DNA of 42,816 bases from a virus (IMGVR_UViG_3300045988_147588:1-42816); one strand, 5' to 3'; numbered from the stretch's first letter, positions 1-42,743 are shown. Notes: a model not told the origin generated them from the letters alone. Made by a program: numbers and translations.

Positions 1-75
1 CTTGTGCGCTGCTTGTGCTGCTGCTTGTGCGCTGCTTGTGCTGCTGCTTGTGCTGCTGCTTGTGTTGCTGCTTAT
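1..75. repeat. Tandem repeat array (alternating CTTGTGCGCTG / CTTGTGCTGCTG units, 23-bp compound period), cut by the left window edge
   Basis: Units read at 1-11, 12-23, 24-34, 35-46, 47-58, 59-70 (last degenerate). Same array at 42744-42816. Confidence 0.9.
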
Positions 76-113
76 CCAGAAAAAAACATTTTTAAAATAT
101 TTTTATTTTAGTA

Positions 114-170
114 TTGACAAGTCGTCTTGTATATATATACTTATGGTTGTAAAGACAAGTAGTCTTGTAT
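114..170 (+). promoter_or_regulatory. Sigma70-like promoter with paired palindromic operator boxes
   Basis: TTGACA 114-119, 17-nt spacer, TATACT 137-142. 17-bp box GACAAGT(C/A)GTCTTGTAT at 116-132 and 154-170 (ACAAG...CTTGT inverted arms). Confidence 0.6.
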
Positions 171-190
171 AGAAAGTGAGAAATAAAAAC

Positions 191-499
191 ATGAAAAAAC
201 TTAAAGCATTATTACTTGCAACATTAGCAGCTGCTAACATTTACACGCTTATTAATAGCGATAAGCAGCAAGAACAACCAACAAACGAAAAGCATTTATT
301 ATCAATTGAACATTTCGAATATGATTATTATCAATCATATTTGCATGGATCAGTACCAGTTGATCATGACACATTTATAGCTATAAAAGTAGCTTACACA
401 ATAACAGAAGATGAAAGCTATATCTATTTATTAGATAGTTTAAATAATCAAGAATATGTAATAGCTCAAATGATTATTGATATAAATAACGGGCAGTGA
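191..499 (+). CDS. Small secreted or membrane-anchored protein (102 aa)
   Basis: ORF track 176..499. ATG at 191 gives MKKLKALLLATLAAANIY, a hydrophobic N-terminal signal/anchor. Lies downstream of the promoter at 114-142. Confidence 0.6.
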   Translation: MKKLKALLLATLAAANIYTLINSDKQQEQPTNEKHLLSIEHFEYDYYQSYLHGSVPVDHDTFIAIKVAYTITEDESYIYLLDSLNNQEYVIAQMIIDINNGQ

Positions 500-529
500 G
501 TGAAAAAATTAAAAAATATAAAAAAAGCA

Positions 530-581
530 TTGACATGTCACCACGTGGTGATAATATATAAGTGTAATCACCAAGTGGTGA
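530..581 (+). promoter_or_regulatory. Sigma70-like promoter with a second, different palindromic operator pair
   Basis: TTGACA 530-535, TAATAT 552-557. Perfect palindrome TCACCACGTGGTGA at 538-551 and near-copy TCACCAAGTGGTGA at 568-581. Confidence 0.6.
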
Positions 582-601
582 CAACTAGAAAGGAGGAAAA
601 A

Positions 602-754
602 ATGACCAACAAAGAAATAGAAATGTTGAAGCGCTGCATTTTAGCAAATTTAAAAGTATTAAAAATACTTTTAGAAAATGAAAAGCTCAATAATCAGGCA
701 ATCATAGCATTAATTAACTCAATGATTAAAGAGCTTGAATTAAGTAGCTTATAG
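602..754 (+). CDS. Hypothetical 50-aa helical protein
   Basis: ATG at 602 preceded by AGGAGG (591-596). The 500..601 part of the track ORF contains the promoter/operators, so it is not coding. Terminator follows. Confidence 0.6.
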   Translation: MTNKEIEMLKRCILANLKVLKILLENEKLNNQAIIALINSMIKELELSSL

Positions 755-761
755 CAGCTAC

Positions 762-790
762 AGGGCGGAACGCCTCCGCCCTTCAATTTT
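762..790 (+). terminator. Rho-independent terminator
   Basis: Stem AGGGCGGA (762-769) / TCCGCCCT (775-782) followed by TCAATTTT. Confidence 0.7.
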
Positions 791-833
791 AGCATAAAAA
801 TAACATGATAAAAAAATAAAAGGAGAAAAAAAC

Positions 834-1208
834 ATGACTTACAATTACAGATTAGAAGAAAAAAACGACATTTACAATTATATTACAGAAAATTATGAAG
901 ATATTAAAAGTGAACTAGAAGATCGTGATTCATTTTATGAAACATTATATGACAATTTATTTAATGAAGATTCAGTAACAGGAAATGCTAGCGGCTCATA
1001 TACTTTTAACCGTTACAAATCACGCGAGTATGTTTTAGGAAATGAAGATCTATTAAGAGAAGCATATACAGAATTTTGCTGTATGGATTCACTCGGCAAT
1101 GATTTTATAGAAGAAAATTACGAAAAAATGGATGTGACTATTCGCTGTTATTTATTGGGTGAATGTTTAAGCGATGTTTTAGACGACCTAGAAAGCGAAA
1201 TTGAATAA
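834..1208 (+). CDS. Strongly acidic 124-aa protein (anti-restriction / DNA-mimic candidate)
   Basis: ATG preceded by AAAGGAG. About 32 D/E versus about 11 K/R counted by eye. Early-arm position. Confidence 0.7.
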   Translation: MTYNYRLEEKNDIYNYITENYEDIKSELEDRDSFYETLYDNLFNEDSVTGNASGSYTFNRYKSREYVLGNEDLLREAYTEFCCMDSLGNDFIEENYEKMDVTIRCYLLGECLSDVLDDLESEIE

Positions 1209-1209
1209 T

Positions 1210-1389
1210 ATGATGAAAAGATATATTTCAGTTAGTAAAAATACGCAATGTTATGTATTTTCAACAGTAATAAATAATCGCTGTTATGAACAATGTTATT
1301 TCGGCTACACCATGCAAGAAATGCGGCGGATGTTCCGCGAACATTGCGGACTTATTGGCGATAAAAATGTTAGATTCATTTCACGATAA
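1210..1389 (+). CDS. Hypothetical 59-aa protein
   Basis: In-frame ATG ATG at 1210/1213 within track ORF 1201..1389. Abuts the stop of the upstream gene. Confidence 0.5.
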   Translation: MMKRYISVSKNTQCYVFSTVINNRCYEQCYFGYTMQEMRRMFREHCGLIGDKNVRFISR

Positions 1390-1479
1390 TATAAAAAGAC
1401 GCCCTGAAAGAGTCGTTGAAAATTACGACGAAACCGTCGCAGCTGCGGCGGTCGGCGTTATGCCATGGAGGTTTTTGTT

Positions 1480-1809
1480 ATGCTTGTACCTGAATTGATT
1501 AAAATAAAACCTATTGAAGCATTTAAAAATAGATCTTTAAGGACAGAATATAACAGCCAATGCGATAATGCTTTAAAATTCTGGACAGATTACATTTTTA
1601 ATAATGTCGAAAACGGAATAGAAATTGAAGATAAAAATATAATGATTATTTCTAAGGGAATAAATAACCCTGGTTATATTAGAATCTCAATTTTCAATCA
1701 TGAAAGAGATTATTTTTTGTATGCAGTAATGCATAAAGAATATAAGCCAACTGAAATGAAACGGCTTTTCAATGACTATTTATTAAAAATAAGCATTTCG
1801 AAATCCTAG
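1480..1809 (+). CDS. Hypothetical 109-aa protein
   Basis: GGAGG at 1467-1471, then ATG at 1480 (MLVPELIKIK...). The stop lies inside two-block element copy A. Confidence 0.7.
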   Translation: MLVPELIKIKPIEAFKNRSLRTEYNSQCDNALKFWTDYIFNNVENGIEIEDKNIMIISKGINNPGYIRISIFNHERDYFLYAVMHKEYKPTEMKRLFNDYLLKISISKS

Positions 1810-1831
1810 AAAACAATTTGCGGAGGTATAG
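1800..1831 (+). repeat. Two-block element copy A (GAAATCCTAG-N14-AGGTATAG)
   Basis: Block 1 at 1800-1809 overlaps the stop codon of 1480..1809. Block 2 at 1824-1831 overlaps the SD of the next ORF. Confidence 0.85.
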
Positions 1832-1833
1832 AT

Positions 1834-2010
1834 ATGTATAAATATGGAATGCGATTAAGAGGTTTCGGTTGTGGATCACAGCCAAACGGCTTTGTTAAGT
1901 GGGAGGATTGTGACAAAAACATAACTGGATATTGGAGTTATGTTTGGTACGATTTCAAGCTTGATAACAACGATTTATTCACTTATAGCATGGATTTACT
2001 AAGCGATTAG
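1834..2010 (+). CDS. Hypothetical 58-aa protein (below the ORF-track cutoff)
   Basis: Hand translation: MYKYGMRLRGFGCGSQPNGFVKWEDCDKNITGYWSYVWYDFKLDNNDLFTYSMDLLSD. GGAGG at 1822-1826 upstream of the ATG at 1834. Confidence 0.6.
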   Translation: MYKYGMRLRGFGCGSQPNGFVKWEDCDKNITGYWSYVWYDFKLDNNDLFTYSMDLLSD

Positions 2011-2041
2011 AAATCCTACGTTTAAAAATTTGGAGGTATAT
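2010..2041 (+). repeat. Two-block element copy B (GAAATCCTAC-N14-AGGTATAT)
   Basis: Block 1 at 2010-2019 starts on the last base of the preceding stop codon. Block 2 at 2034-2041 overlaps the SD. Confidence 0.9.
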
Positions 2042-2563
2042 ATGAAAATCAGCAAAACATTTAGTGGAAGTAACGAATTATATTTGCAGAAATTAACTAG
2101 ACAACAACGCTCTAGCTTGATTGAGAGCGCTGTATCTGACAACATTTACATGCGCGAAATGATACAAAAGCAAATTGAAAACGAAAATGCATACCTTAAA
2201 AGTGTTCATCAACCATCTATGTGGTATGCAATTAGATCTCAGTTGCATGATATGGTGAAAACTTATAGCGATATAGGAAGCGTATTGATAGGGAATGAGC
2301 ATTTTTCTACAACTTTTCATAACGGATATGGTGATGGCACAACTAGAACAGGATACATTGATGCCAACAATTCTGTATTGAGATTCATGAAGTTCGAAAC
2401 AACGTTCCAGGTGAACGGTGATAGCTGCTTTATTTACAGCTACGACTGTTTAAACGGTGAAGATTTAAAAGATAAATCCTACATTGCTGGAACTATTCCA
2501 TGTGGTAAATACGATGTATACCACTATGAAGGTATCATTGCATTAGTTAAACAAGCAAAATGA
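2042..2563 (+). CDS. Hypothetical 173-aa protein
   Basis: ATG at 2042 (MKISKTF...), 5 nt after GGAGG at 2032-2036. Track ORF 2030..2563. Confidence 0.75.
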   Translation: MKISKTFSGSNELYLQKLTRQQRSSLIESAVSDNIYMREMIQKQIENENAYLKSVHQPSMWYAIRSQLHDMVKTYSDIGSVLIGNEHFSTTFHNGYGDGTTRTGYIDANNSVLRFMKFETTFQVNGDSCFIYSYDCLNGEDLKDKSYIAGTIPCGKYDVYHYEGIIALVKQAK

Positions 2564-2593
2564 AATCCTACAAACAAGTCTATGGCCGTATAG
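2562..2593 (+). repeat. Two-block element copy C (GAAATCCTAC-N14-CCGTATAG, weaker block 2)
   Basis: Block 1 at 2562-2571 overlaps the TGA of 2042..2563. Same 14-nt spacing. Confidence 0.7.
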
Positions 2594-2619
2594 CTGTGGA
2601 CTTGTTGTTTAAGCATTTT

Positions 2620-2651
2620 GAAATCCTGCAAAGTAAATTATAATGGTATTG
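2620..2651 (+). repeat. Two-block element copy D (GAAATCCTGC-N14-TGGTATTG)
   Basis: Intergenic. Followed by AAGGAG and the ATG at 2670. Confidence 0.75.
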
Positions 2652-2669
2652 TTTAAAGGAGAAATTACC

Positions 2670-2882
2670 ATGCCAGAAAAGAAATTTGATAAACTAGAAT
2701 ATAACAAAGTGTACAATAAACAGCACACAAAAATGATATGTATTTACCTTAGAATAGAACAAGACTCTGATATAATTGAAGAAATTAGCTCTGCACCAAA
2801 TAAAACAGATTACATCCGTAATTTAGTTCGTGCTGATATTGAACGCAAAAAGCAAGCATCCAAAAATTCTGAAGTTGAATAA
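2670..2882 (+). CDS. Small DNA-binding-like protein (70 aa), paralog of 2958..3167
   Basis: ATG at 2670 after AAGGAG. Shared C-terminal motif PNK(T/V)(D/E)YIR(N/Q)LVRAD(I/M) with the next gene. Confidence 0.7.
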   Translation: MPEKKFDKLEYNKVYNKQHTKMICIYLRIEQDSDIIEEISSAPNKTDYIRNLVRADIERKKQASKNSEVE

Positions 2883-2913
2883 TCAATCGTATGTTTGCTA
2901 ATAGAAGCAAATT

Positions 2914-2945
2914 GAAATCCTACAATAAATATAAATAAGGTATGA
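2914..2945 (+). repeat. Two-block element copy E (GAAATCCTAC-N14-AGGTATGA)
   Basis: Intergenic. Followed by AGAGGTG and the ATG at 2958. Confidence 0.85.
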
Positions 2946-2957
2946 AAGAGGTGTAAT

Positions 2958-3167
2958 ATGGCATTATCAGAAGAAGCAAAAAAGAGAAAGAGCAAATATA
3001 ACGCAGAGAGAAATCAATTAGTTAGTGTTCGCATGGAATTCAGATTTCAAAAAGCAACCGATATGGATGTAGTGGAATACATTAAAGCACAACCAAATAA
3101 AGTGGAATACATCCGTCAATTAGTCAGAGCGGATATGCAAGCAAATCGAAATCCTAAGCAAAAATAA
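2958..3167 (+). CDS. Small DNA-binding-like protein (69 aa), paralog of 2670..2882
   Basis: ORF track. Shares the PNKVEYIRQLVRADM motif with 2670..2882. Confidence 0.7.
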   Translation: MALSEEAKKRKSKYNAERNQLVSVRMEFRFQKATDMDVVEYIKAQPNKVEYIRQLVRADMQANRNPKQK

Positions 3168-3179
3168 ATAGAGGTATAT
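3148..3179 (+). repeat. Two-block element copy F (GAAATCCTAA-N14-AGGTATAT)
   Basis: Block 1 lies inside the last codons of 2958..3167. Block 2 is 23 nt upstream of the ATG at 3202. Confidence 0.85.
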
Positions 3180-3201
3180 GTGAAAACAGGAGGTATTGCA
3201 A

Positions 3202-3423
3202 ATGTGTCTAACAATAAACTTTACAGAAGAAGAGAAGCGTTTGCTTAACAGCTATGCTAAAGTTCATTCAACGTCAGTTAGTGATGCCATCAAAAAAATA
3301 GTTTTAGAAAAAATTGAAGATGAATATGATGCTGCTTATGCTGAAAATGCATATAAAGCTTATATTGAAAGTAGCAAAAAAACATACTCTTTTTCTGAAG
3401 CTATGGAAGAACTGGGATTATGA
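3202..3423 (+). CDS. RelB/DinJ-type (DUF6290-like) type II antitoxin, orphan
   Basis: MCLTINFTEEEKRLLNSYAKVHSTSVSDAIKKIVLEKIEDEYD...YSFSEAMEELGL matches the RHH-antitoxin pattern as I recall it. ATG at 3202 after AGGAGG. Confidence 0.6.
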   Translation: MCLTINFTEEEKRLLNSYAKVHSTSVSDAIKKIVLEKIEDEYDAAYAENAYKAYIESSKKTYSFSEAMEELGL

Positions 3424-3453
3424 AGTATCTAGATAGTTATATATAAGCAAAGC

Positions 3454-3485
3454 AAAATCCTACAAAGGAATAAAATAAGGTATAT
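3454..3485 (+). repeat. Two-block element copy G (AAAATCCTAC-N14-AGGTATAT)
   Basis: Follows the last + strand gene. Points directly into the bidirectional terminator. Confidence 0.85.
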
Positions 3486-3487
3486 AA

Positions 3488-3516
3488 AAAGCGGTCAATT
3501 CAATCTTGATCGCTTT
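3488..3516. terminator. Bidirectional rho-independent terminator between the convergent + arm and the - early operon
   Basis: 10-bp stem AAAGCGGTCA / TGATCGCTTT with one G-U pair. T-runs on both strands. Confidence 0.7.
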
Positions 3517-3673
3517 CTTCTTTTAGATGTTTAATTACTTCTGATGTATCTTTTGATAAAAGTATTTCTACTTTTGCGTGTAATCCATAATTCAAGCCTT
3601 TATTGAATCCTACATGATATCCAATAAACAGAAGCATTGTCATCACTCCAATTTGCGTTATTATACTAAGCAT
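3500..3673 (-). CDS. 57-aa peptide with hydrophobic N-terminus and charged C-terminus (type I toxin-like or holin-like)
   Basis: Hand translation: MLSIITQIGVMTMLLFIGYHVGFNKGLNYGLHAKVEILLSKDTSEVIKHLKEESDQD. Weak AGGA SD. Stop lies in the terminator loop. Confidence 0.45.
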   Translation of the reverse strand: MLSIITQIGVMTMLLFIGYHVGFNKGLNYGLHAKVEILLSKDTSEVIKHLKEESDQD

Positions 3674-3675
3674 TT

Positions 3676-4002
3676 TCAAATCCTACAACATAACATTTCA
3701 CGGCTTGTCTTAATCCAAGCCAAATTTTGATACATGTATTCAATACCTTTTATCGTAATAGAATAAGTTACCATTTTCATATATTCTATCCTATCTGCAA
3801 AAAACTTTGTTTCACCCTCGAAGATATAACCGTTTGATATTAGATTATCAATAATAGTATTCCAATAGTTATCATTTATAATTGGAAACAATGAGCCATC
3901 ATTCTGTATTTCATTACAATATCCAGGTCTTCCGTCTCTCAACATTTCATATAAGTAATTCAATATTTTATATACGACCACACAATAATCATTTTTCGCC
4001 AT
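3676..4002 (-). CDS. YjcQ-like winged-helix protein (108 aa)
   Basis: AGGAGG 8 nt upstream of the ATG at 4002 (MAKNDYCVVVYKILNYLYE...). Resemblance to the YjcQ family by eye. Confidence 0.55.
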   Translation of the reverse strand: MAKNDYCVVVYKILNYLYEMLRDGRPGYCNEIQNDGSLFPIINDNYWNTIIDNLISNGYIFEGETKFFADRIEYMKMVTYSITIKGIEYMYQNLAWIKTSREMLCCRI

Positions 4003-4015
4003 AATCAAGTCCTCC

Positions 4016-4047
4016 TAAATCCTACGCTTCAATTTTTAAAGGTATAT
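4016..4047 (+). repeat. Two-block element copy J (TAAATCCTAC-N14-AGGTATAT)
   Basis: Same orientation and spacing as copies A-G, but lies between two minus-strand genes. A degenerate relative sits at 4828-4859. Confidence 0.8.
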
Positions 4048-4697
4048 CATTTATATTTGCTCATTACATGTTCAATATTTCTTTTAGCATCAATTAAATC
4101 GACTATAGAATTTATAAATGATTTCAAATCAATTAAACCTGGATCTTCTATATTATTTACATAATGTGTTTGACTGTTGCCTATAGTCTTTGAGCCTTTT
4201 GCCAGGATTTTAATATTTTCATCATCAATGTAATCATCTATGCATCGGCCTAAAGGCACTTTTTCTATTTCATCTTTTTTATCGCTGTGAAGATATATTG
4301 CATAATCTTTAATCAACACTTCAAGAGATTTTCTAAAACCAATTCCAGCTATTTCATCAAGTTTATTTTCCTGTGCAAACAATGATTGATTATATATCTT
4401 TTGAAATCTAGGCGATAATTCATTAATCCATTCTGAAAAAATCTTTTCTTCTGGAATCTTTGGTGTTGTTCCTATTAGAATTGGAGTAATAATTCTAAAT
4501 TCATATGTTGCAATAAATGTATTATGGCACGCTGGGCATAAACATGTTCTAAACACTTTACATCTGCAGTTATTGTAATCAAACAATGGTTCAGGACAAA
4601 TATAAGAGTGACATATTGGGCAACGATTAGGTAATTTACCTTTAAATTCTCCTCGTTCTTTAATCAATTTATTACTTACTTTTTTTAAAATACGCAT
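4047..4697 (-). CDS. Zn-ribbon + DUF4145-like protein (216 aa), defence/exclusion candidate
   Basis: CPICH...CLCPACH cysteine pairs at the N-terminus. C-terminal GFRKSLEVLIKDY...IGNSQTHY resembles DUF4145. Confidence 0.55.
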   Translation of the reverse strand: MRILKKVSNKLIKERGEFKGKLPNRCPICHSYICPEPLFDYNNCRCKVFRTCLCPACHNTFIATYEFRIITPILIGTTPKIPEEKIFSEWINELSPRFQKIYNQSLFAQENKLDEIAGIGFRKSLEVLIKDYAIYLHSDKKDEIEKVPLGRCIDDYIDDENIKILAKGSKTIGNSQTHYVNNIEDPGLIDLKSFINSIVDLIDAKRNIEHVMSKYK

Positions 4698-4699
4698 GG

Positions 4700-4816
4700 C
4701 TATATTTTACCATTATCTTTATTTTTTAAAACACGTTCTATTTCTTCAAGTCTTTTTTCAATATCATTCAGTCTTTTTAGAATTTCATTTAAAACAATAC
4801 TTTGTAATTCATCCAT
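4700..4816 (-). CDS. 38-aa coiled-coil peptide
   Basis: Hand translation: MDELQSIVLNEILKRLNDIEKRLEEIERVLKNKDNGKI. AGGAGG upstream. Tightly packed before the next ATG. Confidence 0.45.
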   Translation of the reverse strand: MDELQSIVLNEILKRLNDIEKRLEEIERVLKNKDNGKI

Positions 4817-4840
4817 ACAAGTCCTCCTAAATCATAAGTG

Positions 4841-5266
4841 CTAACATATAATGGCATATATTTTTTCATATATATTTGTTATCTTTCTATATACTTGGGA
4901 TTTGCTGCAATGCATATTTTTTCCTATTTCTTCATAAGATAATCTTCTTATATATACATCATCAAGAAGTTCTTTTTCTTCTTCCAGAAGATTTGCTTTG
5001 TTGAAAGAAATAAATAAATATTTACTTTTCTTTTTCTCAATCTTTTTAGCTACTTCTAAATCATCAATTTTAGAAATCATATCAATCAATCTTTGATCGT
5101 GTGTTATTCCACTTGGCGAACCAGGTTCTTTATCATATCTAATTCCTTTAGTTCCTAGTTTGCTTCTGCATTGCTTGATGTTTCTTTCTATTTCATTAAT
5201 TTTTTCAATGCTCAAATACATTGAAGCTAGAAATCCTTTAATTTTTTGTACTTCTAAATCAGTCAT
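4841..5266 (-). CDS. Sigma-70 region-4-like / phage transcriptional regulator (141 aa)
   Basis: C-terminal HTH LSYEEIGKNMHCSKSQVYRKITNIYEKI. Size and layout resemble ArpU/RinA/DUF1492-type phage regulators. Confidence 0.55.
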   Translation of the reverse strand: MTDLEVQKIKGFLASMYLSIEKINEIERNIKQCRSKLGTKGIRYDKEPGSPSGITHDQRLIDMISKIDDLEVAKKIEKKKSKYLFISFNKANLLEEEKELLDDVYIRRLSYEEIGKNMHCSKSQVYRKITNIYEKIYAIIC

Positions 5267-5293
5267 TATCCTCTCAGAAATAAGTTACAGTTC

Positions 5294-6163
5294 TTATTTC
5301 TCAAAATCAGTAAATATACTAGTTTGTCCAAACCTATCAATACCATTAATTCTATTTGTTGCTATTTTCTGGTATTCTTCATTGATTTCAAATCCTATAA
5401 AATTTCTTCCTGTTTCTTTGCAAGCAACACAAGTTGTTCCACTTCCGCAAAATGCATCCAATACAATATCGTTTGGTTGCGTAGCATGAAGTATATGCTT
5501 TTCAACGAAATCCAACGGCTTAATTGTCGGATGTATGTATTTCTTTTTATCTTCAGTATTGGTAGAAGAAATATAATATGAGCGTTTTAAATCCATACCA
5601 TCATTCAATCTTCTTGCTCCTTTTTCTCTGAAGAAAAGACAATATTCTGTATCACTCAACCACGTATTGTTTGTTTTTGGAATCGGATTTGTTTTATGCC
5701 ACGTTAATATATTGAAGTTGCAGTCTTTCTTATTGCAGAAATAATCAATTGTATATGGAATCTGCGCTTTAGATAACCATATATATATGTATATTTCTTT
5801 TTCTACTCTGCAAAATTCATCATATATAGAATAATCAATTCCTGTATCAATACCCACAAGATTCTTTTTTTGCACAAGTCTGTTGCATTCTTGTTTATGC
5901 TTTTCCTTTTCGTATTCGCCAGTTGTTTCTTCATACAATTGTTTTTCTTTTTTAAATGCTATTTCTAAATTGTATTTTCTATTTCTAATTCCAAACGCAC
6001 CACCGTCACCAGCAGAAGCAAATTGATATGGAAGATCAACATAAATTAAATCAATGCTCTTGTCAGGTATATTCTTTATCAGTTCATAAGCATTTCCGCA
6101 TATAACTGTATTTAAATTTTCCTCAATAAAACTGCCCATTTTCTCCTTGAACATAAGAAGCAT
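5294..6163 (-). CDS. Beta-class N6A/N4C DNA methyltransferase (N6_N4_Mtase type)
   Basis: Motif IV-like VDLPY near the N-terminus. HPTIKP...VLDAFCGSGTT (motif I) near the C-terminus. Start may be an internal ATG. Confidence 0.8.
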   Translation of the reverse strand: MLLMFKEKMGSFIEENLNTVICGNAYELIKNIPDKSIDLIYVDLPYQFASAGDGGAFGIRNRKYNLEIAFKKEKQLYEETTGEYEKEKHKQECNRLVQKKNLVGIDTGIDYSIYDEFCRVEKEIYIYIWLSKAQIPYTIDYFCNKKDCNFNILTWHKTNPIPKTNNTWLSDTEYCLFFREKGARRLNDGMDLKRSYYISSTNTEDKKKYIHPTIKPLDFVEKHILHATQPNDIVLDAFCGSGTTCVACKETGRNFIGFEINEEYQKIATNRINGIDRFGQTSIFTDFEK

Positions 6164-6181
6164 ATCTTGTGTTCCATCTTG

Positions 6182-6864
6182 TTAAATCAGATAAGTTTTT
6201 ATAAATCTTCTTGCATAGTCTTTTGAAATCATACTTCTTTGAACTTTTCTTGTTTTTCCATCTTCATCTTTGGCATATGAAATTCTTTTTTTTGGATGAA
6301 TAATCATTGGTTCATCCATAATAATATTTTCTTTAGGTTCAAAGTTAACAAAGAAGTATTGTGTAGATTTTTCATAGTAATCACCATTTTCATGCCTGTT
6401 TTTATCAATAACTTTAGGCTTTATGGCCCAGTACTTAATCAAGTAATGAGTTGATGAATATGGATTTTCTATGACTAAACGAAGCCCCCCCGTAAAGCTA
6501 CAATCGTGAGCATTGTTACAAATTCATACATATCATGCAGTTCCTTATGCATTTTCATATCTAACTGGAGCTTTTCTATATCATCATAATTTTTCATCTG
6601 GAAGGCAGTTCCTCTGAAATGCAGCTGAATTTGTTCTTCAAATCTAATGCAGGGAAAGAAAGCTAAAATCAAATCATCCTTTTTAATACTGTCGAATATT
6701 GAATCACGATAACAGTACGCCTTTTCTATTTCATCAAACAAATCAATCACATAATCTGTTTCACTGAAATCATTAGCAATATCATAATCGTATGCTTCAT
6801 ATCCAAGTTTTCTGAATTCATTTTTGAATGTTCCCGACTGTTCAAACATGCAATGAACTTTCAT
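6182..6864 (-). pseudogene. C5-cytosine-methyltransferase-like gene split by a G7 tract (ORFs 6475..6864 and 6182..6442)
   Basis: CMFEQSGTF (motif I-like) and FFPC (motif IV-like) in the upstream ORF. One extra G joins the ORFs and creates LVIENP (motif VI-like). The downstream ORF has a TTG start and no SD. Confidence 0.6.
6485..6491 (-). repeat. G7 homopolymer (C7 on the + strand) at the frameshift point
   Basis: Read directly. Unusual in this AT-rich genome. Confidence 0.95.
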
Positions 6865-7007
6865 ATTCTCTCCTTTAATCCATGCAACCGATGTATAGTT
6901 ATGTTGCATGGTTCTAATTTCGTAAAATCCAAGATAACCGTTTATTTATGCGGTTATCCTAGATTGTGCTTTTTTCTTGTGCAACATAATTTGATTTGTT
7001 GCAACGC
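6865..7007 (-). promoter_or_regulatory. Leader/regulatory module copy A (TGCAACA palindromes + terminator hairpin)
   Basis: Hairpins at 6980-7003 (TGCAACA/TGTTGCA), 6933-6958 (GATAACCG/CGGTTATC + T-run on the minus strand) and 6880-6911 (CATGCAAC/GTTGCATG). Homologous module at 11320-11465. Confidence 0.6.
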
Positions 7008-7178
7008 TTATATTCTCCAGTCAAGTGGACGTCCACAATATGGACATTCTGGCGAATAATAATCTGTTCCTCTTATCCACTTATGACAATGAGGACAGCC
7101 AAATCTTTCAAGCTTTACTTCCTCTTCATCTTCTTCAAAAACAAAGATGTCATATTCAACTTTATTATTCTGCTGCAT
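7008..7178 (-). CDS. Zn-ribbon protein (56 aa)
   Basis: CPHC...CPYC motif pairs. ATG at 7178 after GGTGA, just downstream of the MazG stop. Confidence 0.6.
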   Translation of the reverse strand: MQQNNKVEYDIFVFEEDEEEVKLERFGCPHCHKWIRGTDYYSPECPYCGRPLDWRI

Positions 7179-7179
7179 T

Positions 7180-7515
7180 TTAAATATCACCTTCAGCACG
7201 ATGTAATGAGCGTTCTGATTCAAATCCTTCTGGATATCTTGCTTTCAATTTATTGATGTTTGTCTGCATTACATCATCCATATCAAGGCCAAGTGCTTCA
7301 CATGCTTCAGTAATCATCCAGAGACAATCACCAAGTTCTTTCTTGATATGCTCTTTGTCAAATTCATGTCCCTGATATACCTTCTGAAGAATTCCTGCAA
7401 CTTCACCAGCTTCTGAAGTAAGTCCAAATACTGCATGATGTAATCTTCCTTTCTTGTCATCGTATGGAATGCTGCATGTTCTCATTGCGTATGTTTGATA
7501 TTCGTTTCCTGTCAT
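7180..7515 (-). CDS. MazG-like nucleotide pyrophosphohydrolase (111 aa)
   Basis: LTSEAGEVAGILQK...ELGDCLWMI...INKLKARY, typical of phage MazG. GGAGG upstream of the ATG at 7515. Confidence 0.8.
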   Translation of the reverse strand: MTGNEYQTYAMRTCSIPYDDKKGRLHHAVFGLTSEAGEVAGILQKVYQGHEFDKEHIKKELGDCLWMITEACEALGLDMDDVMQTNINKLKARYPEGFESERSLHRAEGDI

Positions 7516-12099: not shown

Positions 12100-12306
12100 T
12101 TATAAAAAGAACGTTTTGATGCTCATTGTATTTCTTATAGCTTTCTTTTGAAGTTCTAACATTTCATGCCCTTCAAAAGTAAAATTGATACCATTTTTTA
12201 ATAGCAAATATCCCAATGCACCAACCATAGAAAAGTAATTTATTTTTCTTTGCCAATTAATATACAAAAGACATGAGAGAACTATGATAATAATATTTTT
12301 AATCAT
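12100..12306 (-). CDS. Small membrane protein (68 aa)
   Basis: ORF track. Hydrophobic N-terminus IIIIVLSCLLYI. Confidence 0.5.
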   Translation of the reverse strand: MIKNIIIIVLSCLLYINWQRKINYFSMVGALGYLLLKNGINFTFEGHEMLELQKKAIRNTMSIKTFFL

Positions 12307-12503
12307 TATTGCTGCTCCTTCAGGCTATGCCACCATCTGTCTATTTCATCTCTGGCGGTCATTAACCCATCAGCACATCCGTGCAAATAAGCACGTTTGC
12401 CATCATTATTGGATTCAATTTCCAATTTACTGTTAACATTCTTTGCAACAAACAAAATGTGTTGCAACATCACAATATCGTCATCCGTTACTATCTTTTT
12501 CAT
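12306..12503 (-). CDS. Hypothetical protein (65 aa)
   Basis: ORF track. Start and stop overlap the neighbours. Confidence 0.5.
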   Translation of the reverse strand: MKKIVTDDDIVMLQHILFVAKNVNSKLEIESNNDGKRAYLHGCADGLMTARDEIDRWWHSLKEQQ

Positions 12504-13354: not shown

Positions 13355-14098
13355 TCAAAATATTTCATCGAGCGTACTATCACGCTCTTGCTCATTGACT
13401 ATCTGATGATTGTTTCGAAGCCAGTTCCTTACTGTAGCTTTCCAATCTTTCATCGGACTCTTGCCAACAAGCCATCCTTTTGCTTCGTAATAGTCATAGA
13501 ATCTCGCTACGTCTAACGATTTACCAAGACTTTTTACGTATTCAGCAATTTCTTGCTGAGTTGGTTTCACAAATTTTTTTTGTTTTTTCTTAACAACTAC
13601 GTCAGTAGTTGTTTCTTTTTTTATATCTATATCTTTCTCTAACTCTATCTCTGGTGTAGAAATCTTGTTAGAAACCTCGTTAGATATATTGTTAGAAATC
13701 ATGTTAGAAATCTTACGCTTTTCTTCTGAAATTCTTTTTTGATAATTTCTTTGTCTATCTGCTTCTGAGCTAGACTGACCTATAAAGTTTTGGATGTCTA
13801 ACATATAAATTGCTCCAGTATCAAGAACATCAATTAGTCCTAAATCTTTAAATATTTTTAATGCCTTTTCTACATCTCCAACTGAATGTCTTGTTATTGT
13901 GGCAATCATTTGTGCATTGTATGGAATGCGGTCATTGAACATCAATTTTCCGTTTCCCTGTAAACTCATTAGATATAATTTCAACAAAATATTTGAATAC
14001 TTATATCCATCTTGGATAGACTCAAGTATTTTCATTTCATTTGTATCGAAAAAATTTTCCTTAAGTCTCATATAGTAATATTTTTTATTGTCACTCAT
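13355..14098 (-). CDS. Phage replisome organizer / DnaD-domain protein
   Basis: MSDNKKYYYMRLKENFF N-terminus. C-terminal YYEAKGWLVGKSPMKDWKATVRNWLRN is a DnaD-like motif. Alternative start at 14113. Confidence 0.8.
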   Translation of the reverse strand: MSDNKKYYYMRLKENFFDTNEMKILESIQDGYKYSNILLKLYLMSLQGNGKLMFNDRIPYNAQMIATITRHSVGDVEKALKIFKDLGLIDVLDTGAIYMLDIQNFIGQSSSEADRQRNYQKRISEEKRKISNMISNNISNEVSNKISTPEIELEKDIDIKKETTTDVVVKKKQKKFVKPTQQEIAEYVKSLGKSLDVARFYDYYEAKGWLVGKSPMKDWKATVRNWLRNNHQIVNEQERDSTLDEIF

Positions 14099-14103
14099 AC
14101 AAA

Positions 14104-14778
14104 TCACTCCCATTTAGTACCATAGTTTATTTTTTCTCTCTCTTTCTGGACATCACCATATTCCAGACAGATATAAGCCATAGTCACTATAGGGCTTTCA
14201 TGCATTAGCAATCTTTGTGTTTGAAGAAGATCATGTGTCTCATCGTAATACCACCTTCCAAATGACTTTCTCATTGAGTGGCAACCGATTTGATACTTAA
14301 CACCAGCTTCTTTTGCTAATGCTTTAATCTGTCTCCATGCGGTAACACGATTTATAGGAAAGTTATTTTCCTTACTGCTTGGAAACAAGTACTGACTTTG
14401 AGTAATGCCTAGCCACTTAATGTAGTCATTAATAGGCTGCATTACCTCTTTGGACATCGAATACTGCATACGTTTACCTGTCTTATGTTCAGTAAACGTA
14501 ACTTCACCATCACTGATATCTCTAGGTGTTAGTTCTATCAGCGTTGTGATTCTTAGTCCTGTATTTACGCCTAAATGCATTAGTATCTTCAAGCGATACC
14601 ATCTGAAATATTCTTCAGATGTTTCTTCAAGTGATTCCATTCTCACTCTTAAAATTCTTTGCATTTCTTCGTAATCTTCTTTCTTGAACGGTTTAACAAC
14701 TTCTCGACCGTGCTTATCGAGTGTCTTCCGTTCGTATTTCGAACCCTTTGGATTAAATCTCTTTAATTGTCTAGGCAT
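14104..14778 (-). CDS. Short tyrosine recombinase (224 aa, catalytic domain only)
   Basis: GLRITT (Arg), HSMRKSF (HxxR), LMHES...MAYI (His/Tyr). Overlaps the DnaD-like gene start region. Confidence 0.75.
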   Translation of the reverse strand: MPRQLKRFNPKGSKYERKTLDKHGREVVKPFKKEDYEEMQRILRVRMESLEETSEEYFRWYRLKILMHLGVNTGLRITTLIELTPRDISDGEVTFTEHKTGKRMQYSMSKEVMQPINDYIKWLGITQSQYLFPSSKENNFPINRVTAWRQIKALAKEAGVKYQIGCHSMRKSFGRWYYDETHDLLQTQRLLMHESPIVTMAYICLEYGDVQKEREKINYGTKWE

Positions 14779-16737: not shown

Positions 16738-17060
16738 GTGAATTTAATTCAGCTAATCTTGTAAAAAAATATTTTCTATATCTTTTACCGTTAATTTTAA
16801 TGTCTTTTTCAAACCGACAATTTCAGATGCAGTAAAATCGCCCATCCCATTTAGCCTGTTATAAAGCGTTTCTCGCTTAATATTTGAGCGTTTTGCAATA
16901 ACAGTCATAGGAATTCCGCTTTCTTTAATTATTGTTTTTAATTTTTCTAATTTGACCATCTTTTCCTTTCTAGTGAATTTAATTCAACTTGCATAATTAT
17001 CTTATCTAAGAAGTGAATTATTGTCAACACTATAAATAGAAATGTTGAATTATTTTACAC
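16738..17060. promoter_or_regulatory. Genetic-switch operators
   Basis: Identical 15-mer AGTGAATTTAATTCA at 16738-16752 and 16972-16986 (TGAATT-N-AATTCA symmetry). Related AGTGAATTATTGTCAAC at 17012-17028 and GTTGAATTATTTTACAC at 17044-17060. Confidence 0.6.
16753..16959 (-). CDS. Cro-like HTH regulator (68 aa)
   Basis: Divergent from the CI-like gene. HTH IPMTVIAKRSNIKRETLYNRLNG. Confidence 0.65.
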   Translation of the reverse strand: MVKLEKLKTIIKESGIPMTVIAKRSNIKRETLYNRLNGMGDFTASEIVGLKKTLKLTVKDIENIFLQD

Positions 17061-17095
17061 AAACAGTTATTCTATCAGTGAAAGGACATGTTAAT

Positions 17096-17518
17096 ATGTT
17101 AAAATTATACGAAAATATTAAAAAATATCGTTTGCAATTGAGAATGAGCCAAAAAGAATTAGCAAAAAGGACTGGCTACACCGACAGAAGTATGATCACA
17201 AAAATTGAAAAAGGTCATGTAGACCTACCATTATCTAAAATAATTTTATTTGCTGATGTGTTGCAGACAACTCCTATTGAATTGATGGAACTATCTGATG
17301 ATGACTTAATGGAAGAAAGTACAATATATCATTCCAAGAATTCATTTACTCCAGATGATGTAAGAATGTTGGAAGTATATCATAAATCTTCACCAGAAAC
17401 ACAACAAATAATTAGATTGCTCTTGGCAAAAGAACAGGGTATTCCTGCTATAGCCGAGCAAGAACGCCCTATTGCCGATAATACGGATAATGAATCATCA
17501 CGCATTAAGGATAAATAA
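17096..17518 (+). CDS. CI-like XRE-family repressor (140 aa)
   Basis: ATG at 17096 after AAAGGA. HTH MSQKELAKRTGYTDRSMITKIEKG. Divergent from the Cro-like gene. Confidence 0.8.
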   Translation: MLKLYENIKKYRLQLRMSQKELAKRTGYTDRSMITKIEKGHVDLPLSKIILFADVLQTTPIELMELSDDDLMEESTIYHSKNSFTPDDVRMLEVYHKSSPETQQIIRLLLAKEQGIPAIAEQERPIADNTDNESSRIKDK

Positions 17519-17800: not shown

Positions 17801-18961
17801 ATGATAGATAATTCAGGAATATATGAGAGAAAGTCCAAAGCAGGTATTTCATTACAAATTATCCTTAGATATGGAAAAGGAAAAGATAGAAAATCGTTTA
17901 CCAAAACGATTAAAGTATCAGATTATCCAGATAAGAAAAGCGCATATGTTGTAGCTAGAATGATTAGAGATAAAGCACGTATTGATATTAGTGCTGGTAA
18001 AGCATTAGATAATACTGTGCCTAATGTTAAATGGTTCTTTGAAAAAGAATTAGAGTTATCTGGACTTTCAATTAAAACAAAAGCCAAACATAGAGTGTTA
18101 TACAAATACTCTATTGCACAATTTGAGGATGTTCCATTAAATAAAATTAAGACATCTGACATTCAACAATCAATTGTTGAATTTGCTGAAAATCATTCAA
18201 ATGACAGCATTCAAAGATTGGTTTCTGTATGGAGAGCTATTTACCATGCTGCATTAATGTTAGAGTATGAAATTACTGATAAGACTATAGCATTAAAGAA
18301 TGTTAAGTCTAAAATTGTTTCTATTCCAAGAAGCACAGCAACTGATGTAGAAACATTCAATCTGTTTTGTGATGAATTATTAAAATATAATTCAAAAGAT
18401 GGCGTGCCATGCAAGAGATCTCAAGACATTTGGTATATGCTGCAAATAATGAGATGGACAGGTTGTCGCACAGCAGAAGTGCTGGCACTTAACTGGAATG
18501 ATTTCAACGCAGAAAACAAAACGCTATATATCAATAAAAGTGTTGGTTCAACAGGAACAGAAACAAGAAAAATAATCACTACTAAAACTGTTGAATCAAT
18601 ACGCTATGTACCATGCACAGACGAACTAATAGTCATTTTAAATAGTCTTAGAGATTATTCTAGTTCTTCACCTATGATTATTGAGCAGGATGGAAAACCG
18701 TATGAAATAAACGATGTAAGTAACCATATAATGTTAGTATCAAAGAAATGTGGGATTAAGTTTAACGCTTATATGTTGAGACATTTATTCTCTACTACAC
18801 TATACCGTGAAGGTGTTAATCAAGCTGTTATCCGTGACTTGATGGGACATACTTCTTCCAGTATGACATTAGGCTATGCTAATACATCAGAAGAAGATAG
18901 GAAGAAAGCAATCAATAAAATAAAAGCCGAGGAGAAACAAGAAAATGAAGAAAACAACTAA
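17801..18961 (+). CDS. int: Tyrosine integrase (386 aa)
   Basis: GCRTAEVLAL (Arg), MLRHLFST (HxxR-type), LMGHTSSSMTLGYA (His...Tyr). Full N-terminal arm/core-binding region present. Confidence 0.9.
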   Translation: MIDNSGIYERKSKAGISLQIILRYGKGKDRKSFTKTIKVSDYPDKKSAYVVARMIRDKARIDISAGKALDNTVPNVKWFFEKELELSGLSIKTKAKHRVLYKYSIAQFEDVPLNKIKTSDIQQSIVEFAENHSNDSIQRLVSVWRAIYHAALMLEYEITDKTIALKNVKSKIVSIPRSTATDVETFNLFCDELLKYNSKDGVPCKRSQDIWYMLQIMRWTGCRTAEVLALNWNDFNAENKTLYINKSVGSTGTETRKIITTKTVESIRYVPCTDELIVILNSLRDYSSSSPMIIEQDGKPYEINDVSNHIMLVSKKCGIKFNAYMLRHLFSTTLYREGVNQAVIRDLMGHTSSSMTLGYANTSEEDRKKAINKIKAEEKQENEENN

Positions 18962-22647: not shown

Positions 22648-22914
22648 TTAATTTTCATCTAAATATGTTTCTTCTACACTATTTTTTCTAGGTGGTAGAA
22701 GAACACTGTATTTTTGAACTTTATCGTACTTTTTCTTTAATCTAGCTATTATTCTTTTAACAGAACTTTCTGACATATGTAATTCGTATGCCTGTTTTGT
22801 AATAGTCCATCCGCTTACTCTTGTACGGATTATCATTTCTTCTGTTTTTGTAAGACAAGCAAGAGATATAAATTCTTCAAGTATGATTTTGTTCCAAGCT
22901 ACTTGCTTACTCAT
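22648..22914 (-). CDS. Small HTH protein, sigma-70 region 4 / LuxR-like (88 aa)
   Basis: LTKTEEMIIRTRVSGWTITKQAYELHMSESSVKRIIARLKKKY. Confidence 0.6.
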   Translation of the reverse strand: MSKQVAWNKIILEEFISLACLTKTEEMIIRTRVSGWTITKQAYELHMSESSVKRIIARLKKKYDKVQKYSVLLPPRKNSVEETYLDEN

Positions 22915-42650: not shown

Positions 42651-42743
42651 AAAAACATGGTATGGCTCACAATATTTTAATAAGATCGTTTTATTTTTGT
42701 TTTTAGCATAAATAACAAAGAAAGAATAATTATTTTGTTGCTG

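What the first reader, a model, noticed from the sequence alone, without database searches (positions are those of the whole stretch)
1800..4047. Eight same-orientation copies of a two-block element GAAATCCTAC-N14-AGGTATAT punctuate the small-gene array
Copies lie at 1800-1831, 2010-2041, 2562-2593 (weaker block 2), 2620-2651, 2914-2945, 3148-3179, 3454-3485 and 4016-4047. A degenerate relative lies at 4828-4859, and block-1-only copies at 3604-3613 and 3677-3686.

The spacer is always exactly 14 nt but its sequence varies. That is the architecture of a -35/-10 promoter for a non-housekeeping sigma factor, or of a bipartite protein-binding site. All copies face the same way, even the one between two minus-strand genes. 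Four copies overlap the stop or terminal codons of the preceding ORF.

The phage encodes two sigma-region-4-like proteins (4841..5266 and 22648..22914) that could read this element.

Caveats seen in the sequence:
- In copies A and B, block 2 doubles as the SD (GGAGGTATA), leaving no leader.
- Copy G fires straight into a terminator.
- Copy J would make RNA antisense to the DUF4145 gene.

A cassette-boundary or recombination role is therefore an alternative.
Basis: partly seen in the sequence, partly recalled or inferred. Interest (0 to 1): 0.8.

Follow-up and report, generated by a model that had tools for sequence, protein, structure and literature searches.

The report
Repeated junction element between phage gene cassettes
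A conserved stretch of about 40 bases sits at nearly every gene boundary in a variable block of small accessory genes of a gut phage, and related phages gain, lose and swap genes exactly at these stretches, much like the promoter-containing junctions known from T4-type phages.

Summary
The unit is about 39-41 nt: AAGCA-N5-AAATCCTRN-N14-WGGTAT. It occurs only on the + strand and only between 1791 and about 4857. Spacing is fixed: 41 of 43 AAATCCT/GGTAT pairs in the window and its relatives. There are 31 different spacers.

Relatives from gut metagenomes carry 6-12 copies each, around different genes. Ends of homology between eight arrays fall inside an element 109 of 274 times, against 23 expected. 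Hybrid copies show crossovers on either side of the spacer. That fits homology-driven cassette exchange, not a recombinase with one fixed cut site. This part is shown.

What maintains the sequence is inferred. I favour a promoter-type (RNA 5'-end-defining) signal that is not of the sigma-A type. The element is gene-oriented and intergenic, with two strong blocks 17 bp apart. Sigma-A promoters occur only at the array start, and terminator-like hairpins directly precede some copies.

Against block 2 as a -10 box:
- it is the Shine-Dalgarno sequence in at least 12 copies;
- copy G is followed only by a terminator;
- copy J lies antisense between minus-strand genes.

The closest known system is the PeSL cassette of T4-type phages. 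Relatives carry hammerhead ribozymes at equivalent junctions.

The parts
1791..1829 (+). Copy A. AAGCA 1791-1795, AAATCCTAG 1801-1809, GGTAT 1825-1829. The stop codon of the 109-aa gene is the last 3 nt of block 1. Block 2 is the ribosome-binding site of the 58-aa DarA_C gene (ATG 1834).
2001..2039 (+). Copy B. Block 2 is the ribosome-binding site (GGAGGTATAT-ATG) of the 173-aa gene (ATG 2042).
2553..2606 (+). Copy C. A good left half; block 2 is degenerate (CCGTAT) and sits in the loop of a hairpin (arms 2573-2580 and 2599-2606). No gene follows it; copy D starts 58 nt later. Relatives have the same layout with different stems.
2611..2649 (+). Copy D (AAATCCTGC..TGGTAT), upstream of the 70-aa paralog gene. 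That gene's own ribosome-binding site lies 8 nt after GGTAT.
2854..2892 (+). Degenerate copy inside the 3' end of the 70-aa gene (AAGCATCCAAAAATTCTGA..CGTAT).
2905..2943 (+). Copy E, upstream of the 69-aa paralog gene.
3139..3177 (+). Copy F. Its left half encodes the C-terminus (QANRNPKQK) of the 69-aa protein. Homology with L017 ends at 3177. It is the left border of the swappable last cassette.
3445..3483 (+). Copy G, the terminal copy after the last cassette. Only the bidirectional terminator follows it. Homology with L017 resumes at 3439.
3488..3516 (.). Terminator-like hairpin between the converging + array and the minus-strand early operon.
3668..3686 (+). Copy I, left half only (AAGCATTTTCAAATCCTAC). 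It lies on the overlap of two minus-strand genes. Homology with L017 ends at 3684.
4007..4045 (+). Copy J. It fills the gap between two minus-strand genes. Blocks 1 and 2 are intact. The AAGCA position is taken by the reverse complement of the downstream gene's ribosome-binding site.
4819..4857 (+). Copy K, degenerate (AAATCATAA..TGGCAT). Its block 2 overlaps the last codons of the 141-aa gene. It shares CAAGTCCTCCTAAATC with J. Relatives that lack the genes between J and K carry a J/K hybrid.
114..141 (+). Consensus sigma-A promoter at the array start (TTGACA-16-TATACT), with two copies of the palindrome ACAAGTnGTCTTGT.
530..557 (+). Second consensus sigma-A promoter (TTGACA-16-TAATAT, TG-extended), with two TCACCAnnTGGTGA palindromes.
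1398..1459 (+). Hammerhead-like three-way junction in the element-free proximal part of the array. The core has one extra A (CUGAAAGA).
4841..5266 (-). 141-aa protein with a C-terminal sigma-70 region-4-like helix-turn-helix (phrog_36). A candidate reader of the element, not shown to be one.

Best explanation
The element is the junction module of a highly variable accessory-gene array in a temperate phage of a low-G+C Firmicute. The array lies between the end of the early operon and the probable cos/terminase end of the genome.

Shown:
- The unit is about 40 bp, AAGCA-N5-AAATCCTRN-N14-WGGTAT, with fixed spacing and one orientation.
- It sits at almost every boundary in the distal half of the array.
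- Related phages differ by insertion, deletion and replacement of whole cassettes exactly at these units.
- Cassettes can be an ORF, a toxin-antitoxin pair, a hairpin only, a hammerhead only, or minus-strand genes.
- Crossovers fall either in the left half or in block 2. The exchange therefore works by short-homology recombination between directly repeated units.

Inferred: the unit is kept because it is an expression signal of the promoter type.
- Its conserved patches lie about 11 bp apart, on one face of the helix.
- The two strongest patches, AATCCT and GGTATN, are 17 bp apart. This is the layout of a sigma-70-family promoter that does not match the housekeeping consensus.
- It would be read by RNA polymerase with a phage factor, or with an alternative host sigma. 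The 141-aa region-4-like protein is the obvious phage candidate.
- Each cassette then brings or meets its own start signal, as in the PeSL cassettes of T4-type phages.

Where transcription would start is open. It could be about 7 nt after block 2, or at block 2 itself. The second option fits the flanking features better.
For: Reality and fixed geometry:
- 8 hits against 0.06 expected.
- Copies on the + strand only.
- GGTAT lies at one offset in 41 of 43 cases, with 31 different spacers.

Conservation in relatives, around different genes:
- L017/L018 carry 6-7 copies, L070 carries 12, L073 carries 11, L080 carries 9.
- L085, L161, L164 and others also carry copies.

Cassette exchange:
- Homology between the window and L017 breaks at 2549, 3177, 3439 and 3684, all at element edges.
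- 109 of 274 HSP ends lie inside an element. The null mean is 22.9 and the maximum 38 in 1000 randomisations. 158 lie within 10 nt, against 33 expected.
- The slot between F and G is empty in L080. It holds DUF6290 in the window, L072 and L073, and a 151-aa ORF in L017, L070 and L085. In L105 it holds DUF6290 plus a RelE-like toxin.
- Hybrid copies show crossovers on both sides of the spacer.

Promoter-type reading:
- Copies are intergenic and co-oriented with the array genes.
- Consensus sigma-A promoters exist only at array starts: window 114 and 530, L080 3307, L073 4281 and 4568.
- Terminator-like hairpins directly precede some copies: window C before D, L080 4694-4711, L073 6620-6645.
- Stem-loops overlapping block 2, and upstream stop codons inside the unit, match the published PeSL layouts (PMC2839356, read).
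- No conserved RNA fold exists (mean z -0.03 over 31 copies) and Rfam gives no hit. This favours recognition of the primary sequence by a protein.
Against: There is no transcript or binding evidence.

Block 2 cannot be the -10 box for the adjacent gene in many copies.
- In at least 12 distinct copies it is the ribosome-binding site, with ATG 1-5 nt after GGTAT.
- In copy E and in L070-4330 the ribosome-binding site begins 4-5 nt after GGTAT.
- A hammerhead (L070 1981), a hairpin (L070 about 3854) or a terminator (copy G) starts 1-5 nt after GGTAT.

Copies in the wrong context for a promoter:
- Copy G is among the best matches, yet only a terminator follows it.
- Copies I and J lie among minus-strand genes.

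Other points:
- Hammerheads in the same arrays imply long read-through transcripts, which makes internal promoters less necessary.
- No copy lies upstream of the late (HNH/terminase) operon, where a late activator of the 141-aa type would be expected to act.
- The breakpoint counts use related, non-independent sequences.
Confidence: 0.5

Rival explanations
1. RNA-level punctuation. The array is one long transcript from the sigma-A promoters at its start. The element acts in the RNA as a linear recognition site for a host or phage endoribonuclease or RNA-binding protein. It would define mRNA ends or stability at each junction, the job hammerhead ribozymes do at equivalent junctions in relatives.
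For: - Canonical hammerheads sit at cassette junctions in L070 and L080, with the GUC cleavage site 5 nt before block 1 of the next copy. Hammerhead-like folds occur at window 1398-1459 and in L073.
- Hammerheads are published as flanking genes in prophages, with processing of long transcripts proposed as their role (PMC3088659).
- The terminal copy G after the last gene, and left-half-plus-hairpin copies (C type), fit a 3'-end element.
- More distant arrays (L083, L084) carry a different, structured repeat at the same junctions.
Against: - The element has no conserved fold and no Rfam match, so it is not itself a ribozyme.
- Copies I and J are antisense to their neighbouring genes.
- Nothing identifies a nuclease.
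- A fixed 14-nt spacing between two short blocks is more typical of DNA recognition.
Confidence: 0.15
2. Operator sites. The element is bound by a small DNA-binding protein encoded in or next to the array: the 69/70-aa paralogs, YjcQ, the 216-aa phrog_1305 protein or the 141-aa protein. Binding would repress or coordinate the array without the element being a promoter.
For: - Four conserved patches lie about 11 bp apart, on one helix face.
- CCT..AGG in blocks 1 and 2 form a weak inverted repeat.
- The 69/70-aa paralog genes sit directly downstream of copies D and E in every element-bearing array.
- Several predicted DNA-binding proteins flank the array.
Against: - The patches are not repeats of one another.
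- The two paralogs share only about 35% identity, so they are unlikely to read one site.
- The ribbon-helix-helix idea for them was not confirmed. The AF2 model is confident but gives no Foldseek match.
- Operators rarely precede every gene of an operon.
Confidence: 0.12
3. A junction with no molecular function. The blocks persist only because cassettes flanked by well-matched units are the ones that spread and get homogenised by recombination. Block 2 is a shared translation-start region (GGAGGTATATATG) and the left half is a shared gene tail.
For: - Crossovers occur in either block.
- Block 2 is the ribosome-binding site in at least 12 copies.
- The left half encodes the conserved C-terminal QAxxNP of the 69/70-aa family.
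- Copies G, I and J have no obvious expression role.
- The chromosomal fragment in L075 shows decaying copies.
Against: - GGTAT and its exact distance from block 1 are kept in copies where it is not the ribosome-binding site (D, E, F, G, J), across 31 unrelated spacers.
- Conserved AA and A/T-only positions inside the spacer are hard to explain by homology alone.
Confidence: 0.13
4. A site-specific recombination site, integron-like. A phage recombinase, for example the second tyrosine recombinase at 14104-14778, cuts and joins at the element to capture cassettes.
For: - The layout resembles an integron: promoters at the array start, then ORF-plus-site units, with a terminal site after the last cassette. 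Some cassettes are inverted.
- A second integrase-family gene is present.
Against: - There are no inverted-repeat arms and no foldable structure.
- The crossover point is not fixed; it lies left or right of the spacer in different hybrids.
- The J/K deletion uses a different 16-nt repeat.
Confidence: 0.05

Closest known systems
PeSL (promoter-early stem-loop) mobile regulatory cassettes of T4-type phages (Arbiol et al. 2010, PMC2839356; Comeau et al. 2014, PMC4122927)
   Same: - Short composite motifs are repeated at gene boundaries in hyperplastic regions full of ORFans.
- The upstream stop codon lies in or near the motif, and the ribosome-binding site and start codon lie at its 3' end.
- In some copies a stem-loop lies between the boxes or over the second box.
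- Insertions, deletions and replacements between related phages map to the motifs.
- Recombination between neighbouring motifs removes the intervening gene.
   Different: - PeSL boxes match the sigma-70 consensus, and promoter and terminator activity were measured. Here the boxes do not match sigma-A and no activity is known.
- Most copies here lack a stem-loop.
- The host is a Firmicute and the phage a temperate siphovirus.
- The spacing is rigid and there is an extra upstream AAGCA block.
- Some copies flank minus-strand cassettes.
Hammerhead ribozymes flanking genes in prophages (Perreault et al. 2011, PMC3088659)
   Same: - The genomic niche is the same: arrays of small, variable genes, including anti-restriction-type genes.
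- Each array is punctuated by a repeated non-coding unit.
- Relatives of this phage carry a canonical hammerhead at a junction, between two copies of the element.
   Different: The element has no hammerhead core, no conserved fold and no Rfam hit. It would have to act through a protein.
Integron attC sites and cassette arrays
   Same: - Promoters lie at the array start, followed by ORF-plus-site cassettes.
- A site follows the last cassette.
- Cassette content is highly variable.
   Different: - There is no integron integrase next to the array.
- The element has no R''/L''-L'/R' inverted repeats and no folded bottom strand.
- Crossover points are variable.
Group-3 alternative-sigma promoters, e.g. 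sigma-B GTTTAA-N12-15-GGGTAT (recalled from memory, not tested)
   Same: - Block 2 (WGGTAT) resembles the GGGTAT -10 box.
- 14 nt separate it from the upstream block.
- In copy D, GGTATTGTTT resembles the Bacillus subtilis ctc promoter -10 region.
   Different: Block 1 (AAATCCT) does not resemble GTTTAA. No sigma-B-type gene was identified. Host unknown.
Phage-factor-dependent promoters (T4 MotA-box middle promoters, SPO1 gp28 promoters, RinA/ArpU/Alt-dependent late promoters)
   Same: - A non-consensus upstream box replaces the -35 box.
- A small phage protein with a sigma region-4-like fold is encoded nearby.
   Different: - No consensus -10 box accompanies the element.
- No copy lies at the late operon.
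- The 141-aa protein has only sub-threshold family matches.

Membership tests
Housekeeping sigma-70/sigma-A promoter | -35 box like TTGACA and -10 box like TATAAT (A at position 2, T at position 6), 16-18 bp apart | tested here: not met
   The consensus scan picks none of the copies. In no register is the sixth position of a block-2 hexamer a conserved T. Block 1 AAATCCT is unlike TTGACA.
PeSL-type mobile regulatory cassette | Repeated composite motif concentrated at gene boundaries of a hyperplastic region | tested here: met
   Copies occur only in the variable distal array, 6-12 per relative.
PeSL-type mobile regulatory cassette | Indel and replacement breakpoints between related phages map to the motifs | tested here: met
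   109 of 274 homology ends lie inside elements against 22.9 expected, and hybrid copies exist.
PeSL-type mobile regulatory cassette | Strong sigma-70-consensus early promoter within the motif | tested here: not met
   The boxes are not of the sigma-A type. Promoter activity itself is not testable here.
PeSL-type mobile regulatory cassette | Stem-loop (terminator or attenuator) as part of the motif | tested here: inconclusive
   A hairpin is present only in C-type copies (4 different stems), after copy G and after L070-3828. Most copies have none.
PeSL-type mobile regulatory cassette | Formation of mini-circles by recombination between neighbouring motifs | not testable with these tools
   Needs PCR on phage DNA. 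Only the deletion product is seen (the F/G hybrid in L080).
Integron attC site | Imperfect inverted repeats that fold, and a fixed crossover point next to an integron integrase | tested here: not met
   No fold. Crossovers lie on either side of the spacer. The only extra recombinase lies 10 kb away.
Self-cleaving ribozyme or other structured RNA family | Conserved secondary structure with covariation, or a match to a curated family | tested here: not met
   No Rfam hit at E<=5 in 1-6000. Mean folding z is -0.03 over 31 copies, and the predicted folds differ from copy to copy.
Replication-origin iterons | Closely spaced direct repeats next to or inside the initiator gene | tested here: not met
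   Copies are 58-560 nt apart over 2.2 kb and far from the replication genes. An iteron-like array of 12 nt x 4.8 lies at 13657-13714, inside the replisome-organiser gene.
Alternative-sigma (sigma-B-like) promoter | GTTTAA-like -35 box, 12-15 nt, GGGTAT-like -10 box | tested here: inconclusive
   The -10-like part and the spacing fit; the -35 part does not. The consensus is recalled from memory. The host and its sigma factors are unknown.
Sigma factor (for the 141-aa protein) | Region 2 plus region 4 of the sigma-70 family | tested here: inconclusive
   Only region 4 is seen, and below the curated cut-offs: Pfam 22.7 bits against 24.1, TIGR02937 28.3 against 42.9. The N-terminal half has no match, and its AF2 model has pLDDT below 50.

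The most novel reading that the evidence does not exclude
The element and the hammerhead ribozymes may be interchangeable 'cassette heads'. Each would define a fresh RNA 5' end, by initiation at GGTAT or by self-cleavage, for whatever lies downstream. The shared 40-bp unit would also serve as the address for homology-guided capture and exchange of accessory or anti-defence ORFans among gut phages. That would be a recombinase-free analogue of an integron, read by a phage-encoded region-4-like factor.
Probability: 0.2. Interest if true: 0.75.

Novelty: new variant of a known kind. Interest (0 to 1): 0.6.

Why it matters
- It would extend the 'mobile regulatory cassette' mechanism of gene shuffling from virulent T4-type phages of Gram-negative hosts to temperate phages of gut Firmicutes, using a different, non-consensus signal.
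- It gives a concrete sequence handle for finding hypervariable accessory-gene arrays in metagenomes. These arrays hold a DarA_C-like gene, an orphan antitoxin and many ORFans.
- Hammerhead ribozymes occupy equivalent junctions in sister phages. The system therefore offers a natural comparison for asking why prophage gene arrays are punctuated by ribozymes, a question left open since 2011.

Tried and rejected
Searches for relatives:
- No near-identical phage in the GenBank phage collection.
- No protein-level match for the 141-aa protein there.
- The nearest large terminases are 37-42% identical, from faecal phage contigs and a Clostridium scindens phage.
- Exact-pattern scans of IMG/VR and of GTDB genomes gave only single hits. 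None carries the AAGCA extension at the same site, so I treat them as chance.
Only five short contigs carry several copies.

Readings rejected:
- Sigma-A promoter, in either orientation.
- Structured RNA or ribozyme.
- Replication iterons.
- Integron-like site.
- By inspection only: DnaA box, CodY box, Spo0A box, Chi site and CRISPR-repeat mimic. None fits the consensus, the spacing or the clustering.

Other attempts:
- Ribbon-helix-helix assignment of the 69/70-aa paralogs. The AF2 model is confident (pLDDT 88) but gives no Foldseek match in PDB.
- AF2 model of the 141-aa protein. It is too poor in the N-terminal half to judge a sigma region 2.
- PADLOC on the array proteins found nothing meaningful.
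- Host identification was not achieved.

Full report
**1. Setting**

The window is a complete temperate siphovirus-type genome of 42.8 kb with 33% G+C.
- The late genes run on the minus strand from 42378 down to about 19200.
- An integrase (17801-18961, +) and a cI-like repressor (17042-17518, +) face a cro-like gene (16753-16959, -). The minus-strand early operon follows and ends at 3500.
- A plus-strand array of small genes (176-3423) converges on that operon at a bidirectional terminator (3488-3516).
- A 23-nt tandem repeat spans both window ends, so the record is circular or terminally redundant.
- In relatives the array lies between the early-operon end and the HNH/terminase genes.
- A G+C-rich stretch at about 42600-42650 is probably cos. 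This is inference. If so, the array sits a few hundred bases from one end of the virion DNA and reads inward.

**2.

- AAATCCTA occurs 11 times on the + strand and never on the - strand.
- Aligning the copies shows a third conserved block, AAGCA, 5 nt upstream of block 1.
- A weight matrix built from 15 copies finds hits only on the + strand, between 1801 and 4829. One weak hit lies at 8066.
- The unit is AAGCA-N5-AAATCCTRN-N14-WGGTAT, about 40 nt.
- Over 31 copies with different spacers, A-8 and G-7 are invariant. Spacer positions 15-16 are A in 30 and 26 of 31 copies. Positions 17-21 are almost only A or T.
- The conserved patches are centred near -7, 4, 15.5 and 27. That is about 11 bp apart, on one face of the helix.
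- Among 96 distinct AAATCCT contexts in the window and its relatives, GGTAT follows at the canonical offset in 41 and two bases closer in 2. No other offset occurs.

**3. Relatives**

- Curated phage records and IMG/VR hold no close relative. GTDB genomes gave only chance hits.
- I found relatives in ENA and Logan gut metagenomes through the 141-aa protein and through the 69/70-aa paralog family of the array.
- They carry 6-12 copies each, all co-oriented with the array. Short contigs from the metagenome scan add more.
- More distant arrays (L083, L084) lack the element. They carry a different, hairpin-forming repeat of about 65 nt at gene junctions.

**4. Gene content changes at the elements (shown)**

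- Homology between the window and L017 breaks at 2549, 3177, 3439 and 3684. These are the edges of copies C, F, G and I.
- Across eight arrays, 109 of 274 blastn HSP ends lie inside an element. The null mean is 22.9 and the maximum 38 in 1000 randomisations. 158 lie within 10 nt, against 33 expected. The sequences are related, so the ends are not independent, but the excess is large.
- The slot between copies F and G has four states:
  - empty in L080;
  - a DUF6290 antitoxin-like gene in the window, L072 and L073;
  - DUF6290 plus a RelE-like toxin in L105;
  - an unrelated 151-aa ORF in L017, L070 and L085.
- The L080 copy is an F/G hybrid: the 3' end of the 69-aa gene on the left, the G spacer and terminator on the right.
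- The terminal copy of L085 has an F-like spacer joined to the terminator.
- The same head (hammerhead, block 1, spacer CACTTAAATTATGG) precedes a 171-aa gene in L070 and a 173-aa gene in L080.
- Crossovers therefore occur left or right of the spacer. This fits short-homology recombination and argues against one fixed cleavage site.
- Minus-strand cassettes behave the same way.
  - YjcQ alleles differ between copy I and copy J.
  - L070 and L072 lack the 216-aa and 38-aa genes between J and K, and carry a J/K hybrid.
- A fragment of the array, with decaying copies, sits in a bacterial chromosome contig (L075/L076).

**5. What keeps the sequence? (inferred)**

It is not a sigma-A promoter. The consensus scan misses every copy, and no register has the conserved last T of a -10 hexamer.

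It is not a structured RNA. Rfam gives no hit, folding energies are no better than for shuffled sequence, and the predicted folds differ between copies.

It is not an origin. An iteron-like repeat lies inside the replisome-organiser gene.

Features that fit a promoter-type signal:
- Copies are intergenic and co-oriented with the array genes.
- AATCCT and GGTATN are 17 bp apart, with an upstream AAGCA one helical turn further.
- Consensus sigma-A promoters occur only at array starts (window 114 and 530, L080 3307, L073 4281 and 4568).
- Terminator-like hairpins directly precede some copies, so transcription would have to restart there.
- Upstream stop codons inside the unit, and stem-loops placed over the second box, match the published PeSL layouts.

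Features that speak against block 2 as a -10 box:
- In at least 12 distinct copies block 2 is the ribosome-binding site (GGAGGTATATATG).
- In two other copies the ribosome-binding site begins 4-5 nt after GGTAT.
- A hammerhead, a hairpin or a terminator begins 1-5 nt after GGTAT in three contexts.

An alternative register places the start at GGTAT, the conserved AA at the -11 position of a weak -10 region, and AAGCA at -35. It keeps all downstream features intact. It would also make copy G plus the terminator a small RNA, and copy J an antisense RNA. This register is speculative.

**6. Who could read it**

- The 141-aa protein (4841-5266) matches phrog_36 'transcriptional regulator' at E = 3e-13. 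Its matches to sigma-70 region 4 stay below the curated cut-offs. Its N-terminal half matches nothing, and its AF2 model there is unreliable.
- The 88-aa protein (22648-22914) has only a weak region-4-type match.
- No element lies upstream of the late operon.
- The 69/70-aa paralogs look like small DNA-binding proteins to me, but the fold search gave nothing.
- Their conserved C-terminal QAxxNP is simply the translation of the element's left half.

**7. Hammerheads**

- L070 (1981-2041) and L080 carry a hammerhead with a complete core: CUGAUGA, GAA and GUC. It lies between two element copies. The Rfam scores are below the gathering threshold, but the fold is the minimum-energy structure.
- Window 1398-1459 and L073 have the same three-way junction, with compensatory changes in stems II and III. 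Their cores deviate: an extra A in the window, U4 to C in L073. Their activity is uncertain.
- Hammerheads flanking variable genes in prophages are known, and their role is unresolved (PMC3088659).

**8. Verdict**

The feature is real and specific to this phage lineage. It is the junction unit of a cassette-shuffling array. The closest known system is the PeSL cassette of T4-type phages (PMC2839356, PMC4122927). The element meets the distribution and breakpoint criteria of that family, but not the sigma-70-consensus criterion. I therefore call it a new variant of a known kind. Its molecular reader and its transcription start are undetermined.

Noticed in passing
window 1398-1459 (+); L070 1981-2041; L080 about 4983-5039; L073 5258-5317: Hammerhead ribozyme motifs lie inside the small-gene arrays. 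L070 and L080 have a canonical core. The window has one extra A (CUGAAAGA) and L073 has U4 to C. Stems II and III carry compensatory changes between the window and L073. The window copy overlaps a mechanical ORF (1286-1498) that is probably not a gene.
   Followed up: partly
L083 2414-2479, 2684-2752, 3211-3281, 4021-4083; L084 598-656, 1014-1070: More distant arrays, found through remote homologues of the 69/70-aa family, carry a different intergenic repeat of about 65 nt. It has a covarying hairpin: CAGCAATTGCnnCCAAC..GGTTGGnTGCAATAACGGG..CCCGAAG, followed by the ribosome-binding site. It has no Rfam match and folds with z = -4.2.
   Followed up: partly
window 112-172 and 528-590 (+): Each of the two consensus sigma-A promoters at the array start carries two copies of its own palindrome. 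The first has GACAAGTnGTCTTGTAT and the second TCACCAnnTGGTGA. These look like operator pairs for two different repressors.
   Followed up: no
window 1-73 and 42739-42816; L017 about 12117-12465: A 23-nt tandem repeat (CTTGTGCGCTGCTTGTGCTGCTG) spans the junction of the window ends. It is several-fold longer in the relative L017.
   Followed up: no
window about 42600-42650: A G+C-rich island (CCCCCGGGTATATTGGGGGG and GC-rich neighbours) lies in an A+T-rich genome, upstream of the HNH and terminase genes. It is a probable cos site. That would put the array at one end of the virion DNA.
   Followed up: no
window 14104-14778 (-) and 13657-13714: A second, short tyrosine recombinase (224 aa, phrog_216) lies directly upstream of the replisome-organiser gene. 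A 12-nt x 4.8 repeat (TAGAAATCTTGT) inside that gene looks like the origin.
   Followed up: partly
window 3202-3423 (+); L105 (reverse strand) 473-984: The last cassette of the window is a DUF6290 antitoxin-like gene with no toxin. In L105 the same slot holds DUF6290 plus a RelE-like toxin gene.
   Followed up: partly
L075/L076 about 6020-7262 (NCBI GCA_964316255.1, contig CAYCJM010000234.1): A fragment of the array sits in a bacterial chromosome between glycerol-metabolism and flavin-reductase genes. It holds four tandem 69-75-aa paralogs with their elements and the first 30 nt of the 151-aa gene. No other phage genes are nearby. Three of its four main copies score lower than their phage orthologues.
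   Followed up: partly
window 2670-2882 and 2958-3167 (+): These two genes are paralogs of about 35% identity in the phrog_14312 family. Their C-terminal residues (QASKNSE, QANRNPKQK) are encoded by the element's left half. Distant family members from arrays without the element lack this tail.
   Followed up: yes
window 2939-2956 and 3178-3183 (+): Tiny ORFs start inside or just after block 2. In copy E it is ATG AAA GAG GTG TAA, ending one base before the real ATG. In copy F it is ATG TGA. They may be relics of the form of block 2 that serves as a ribosome-binding site.
   Followed up: no
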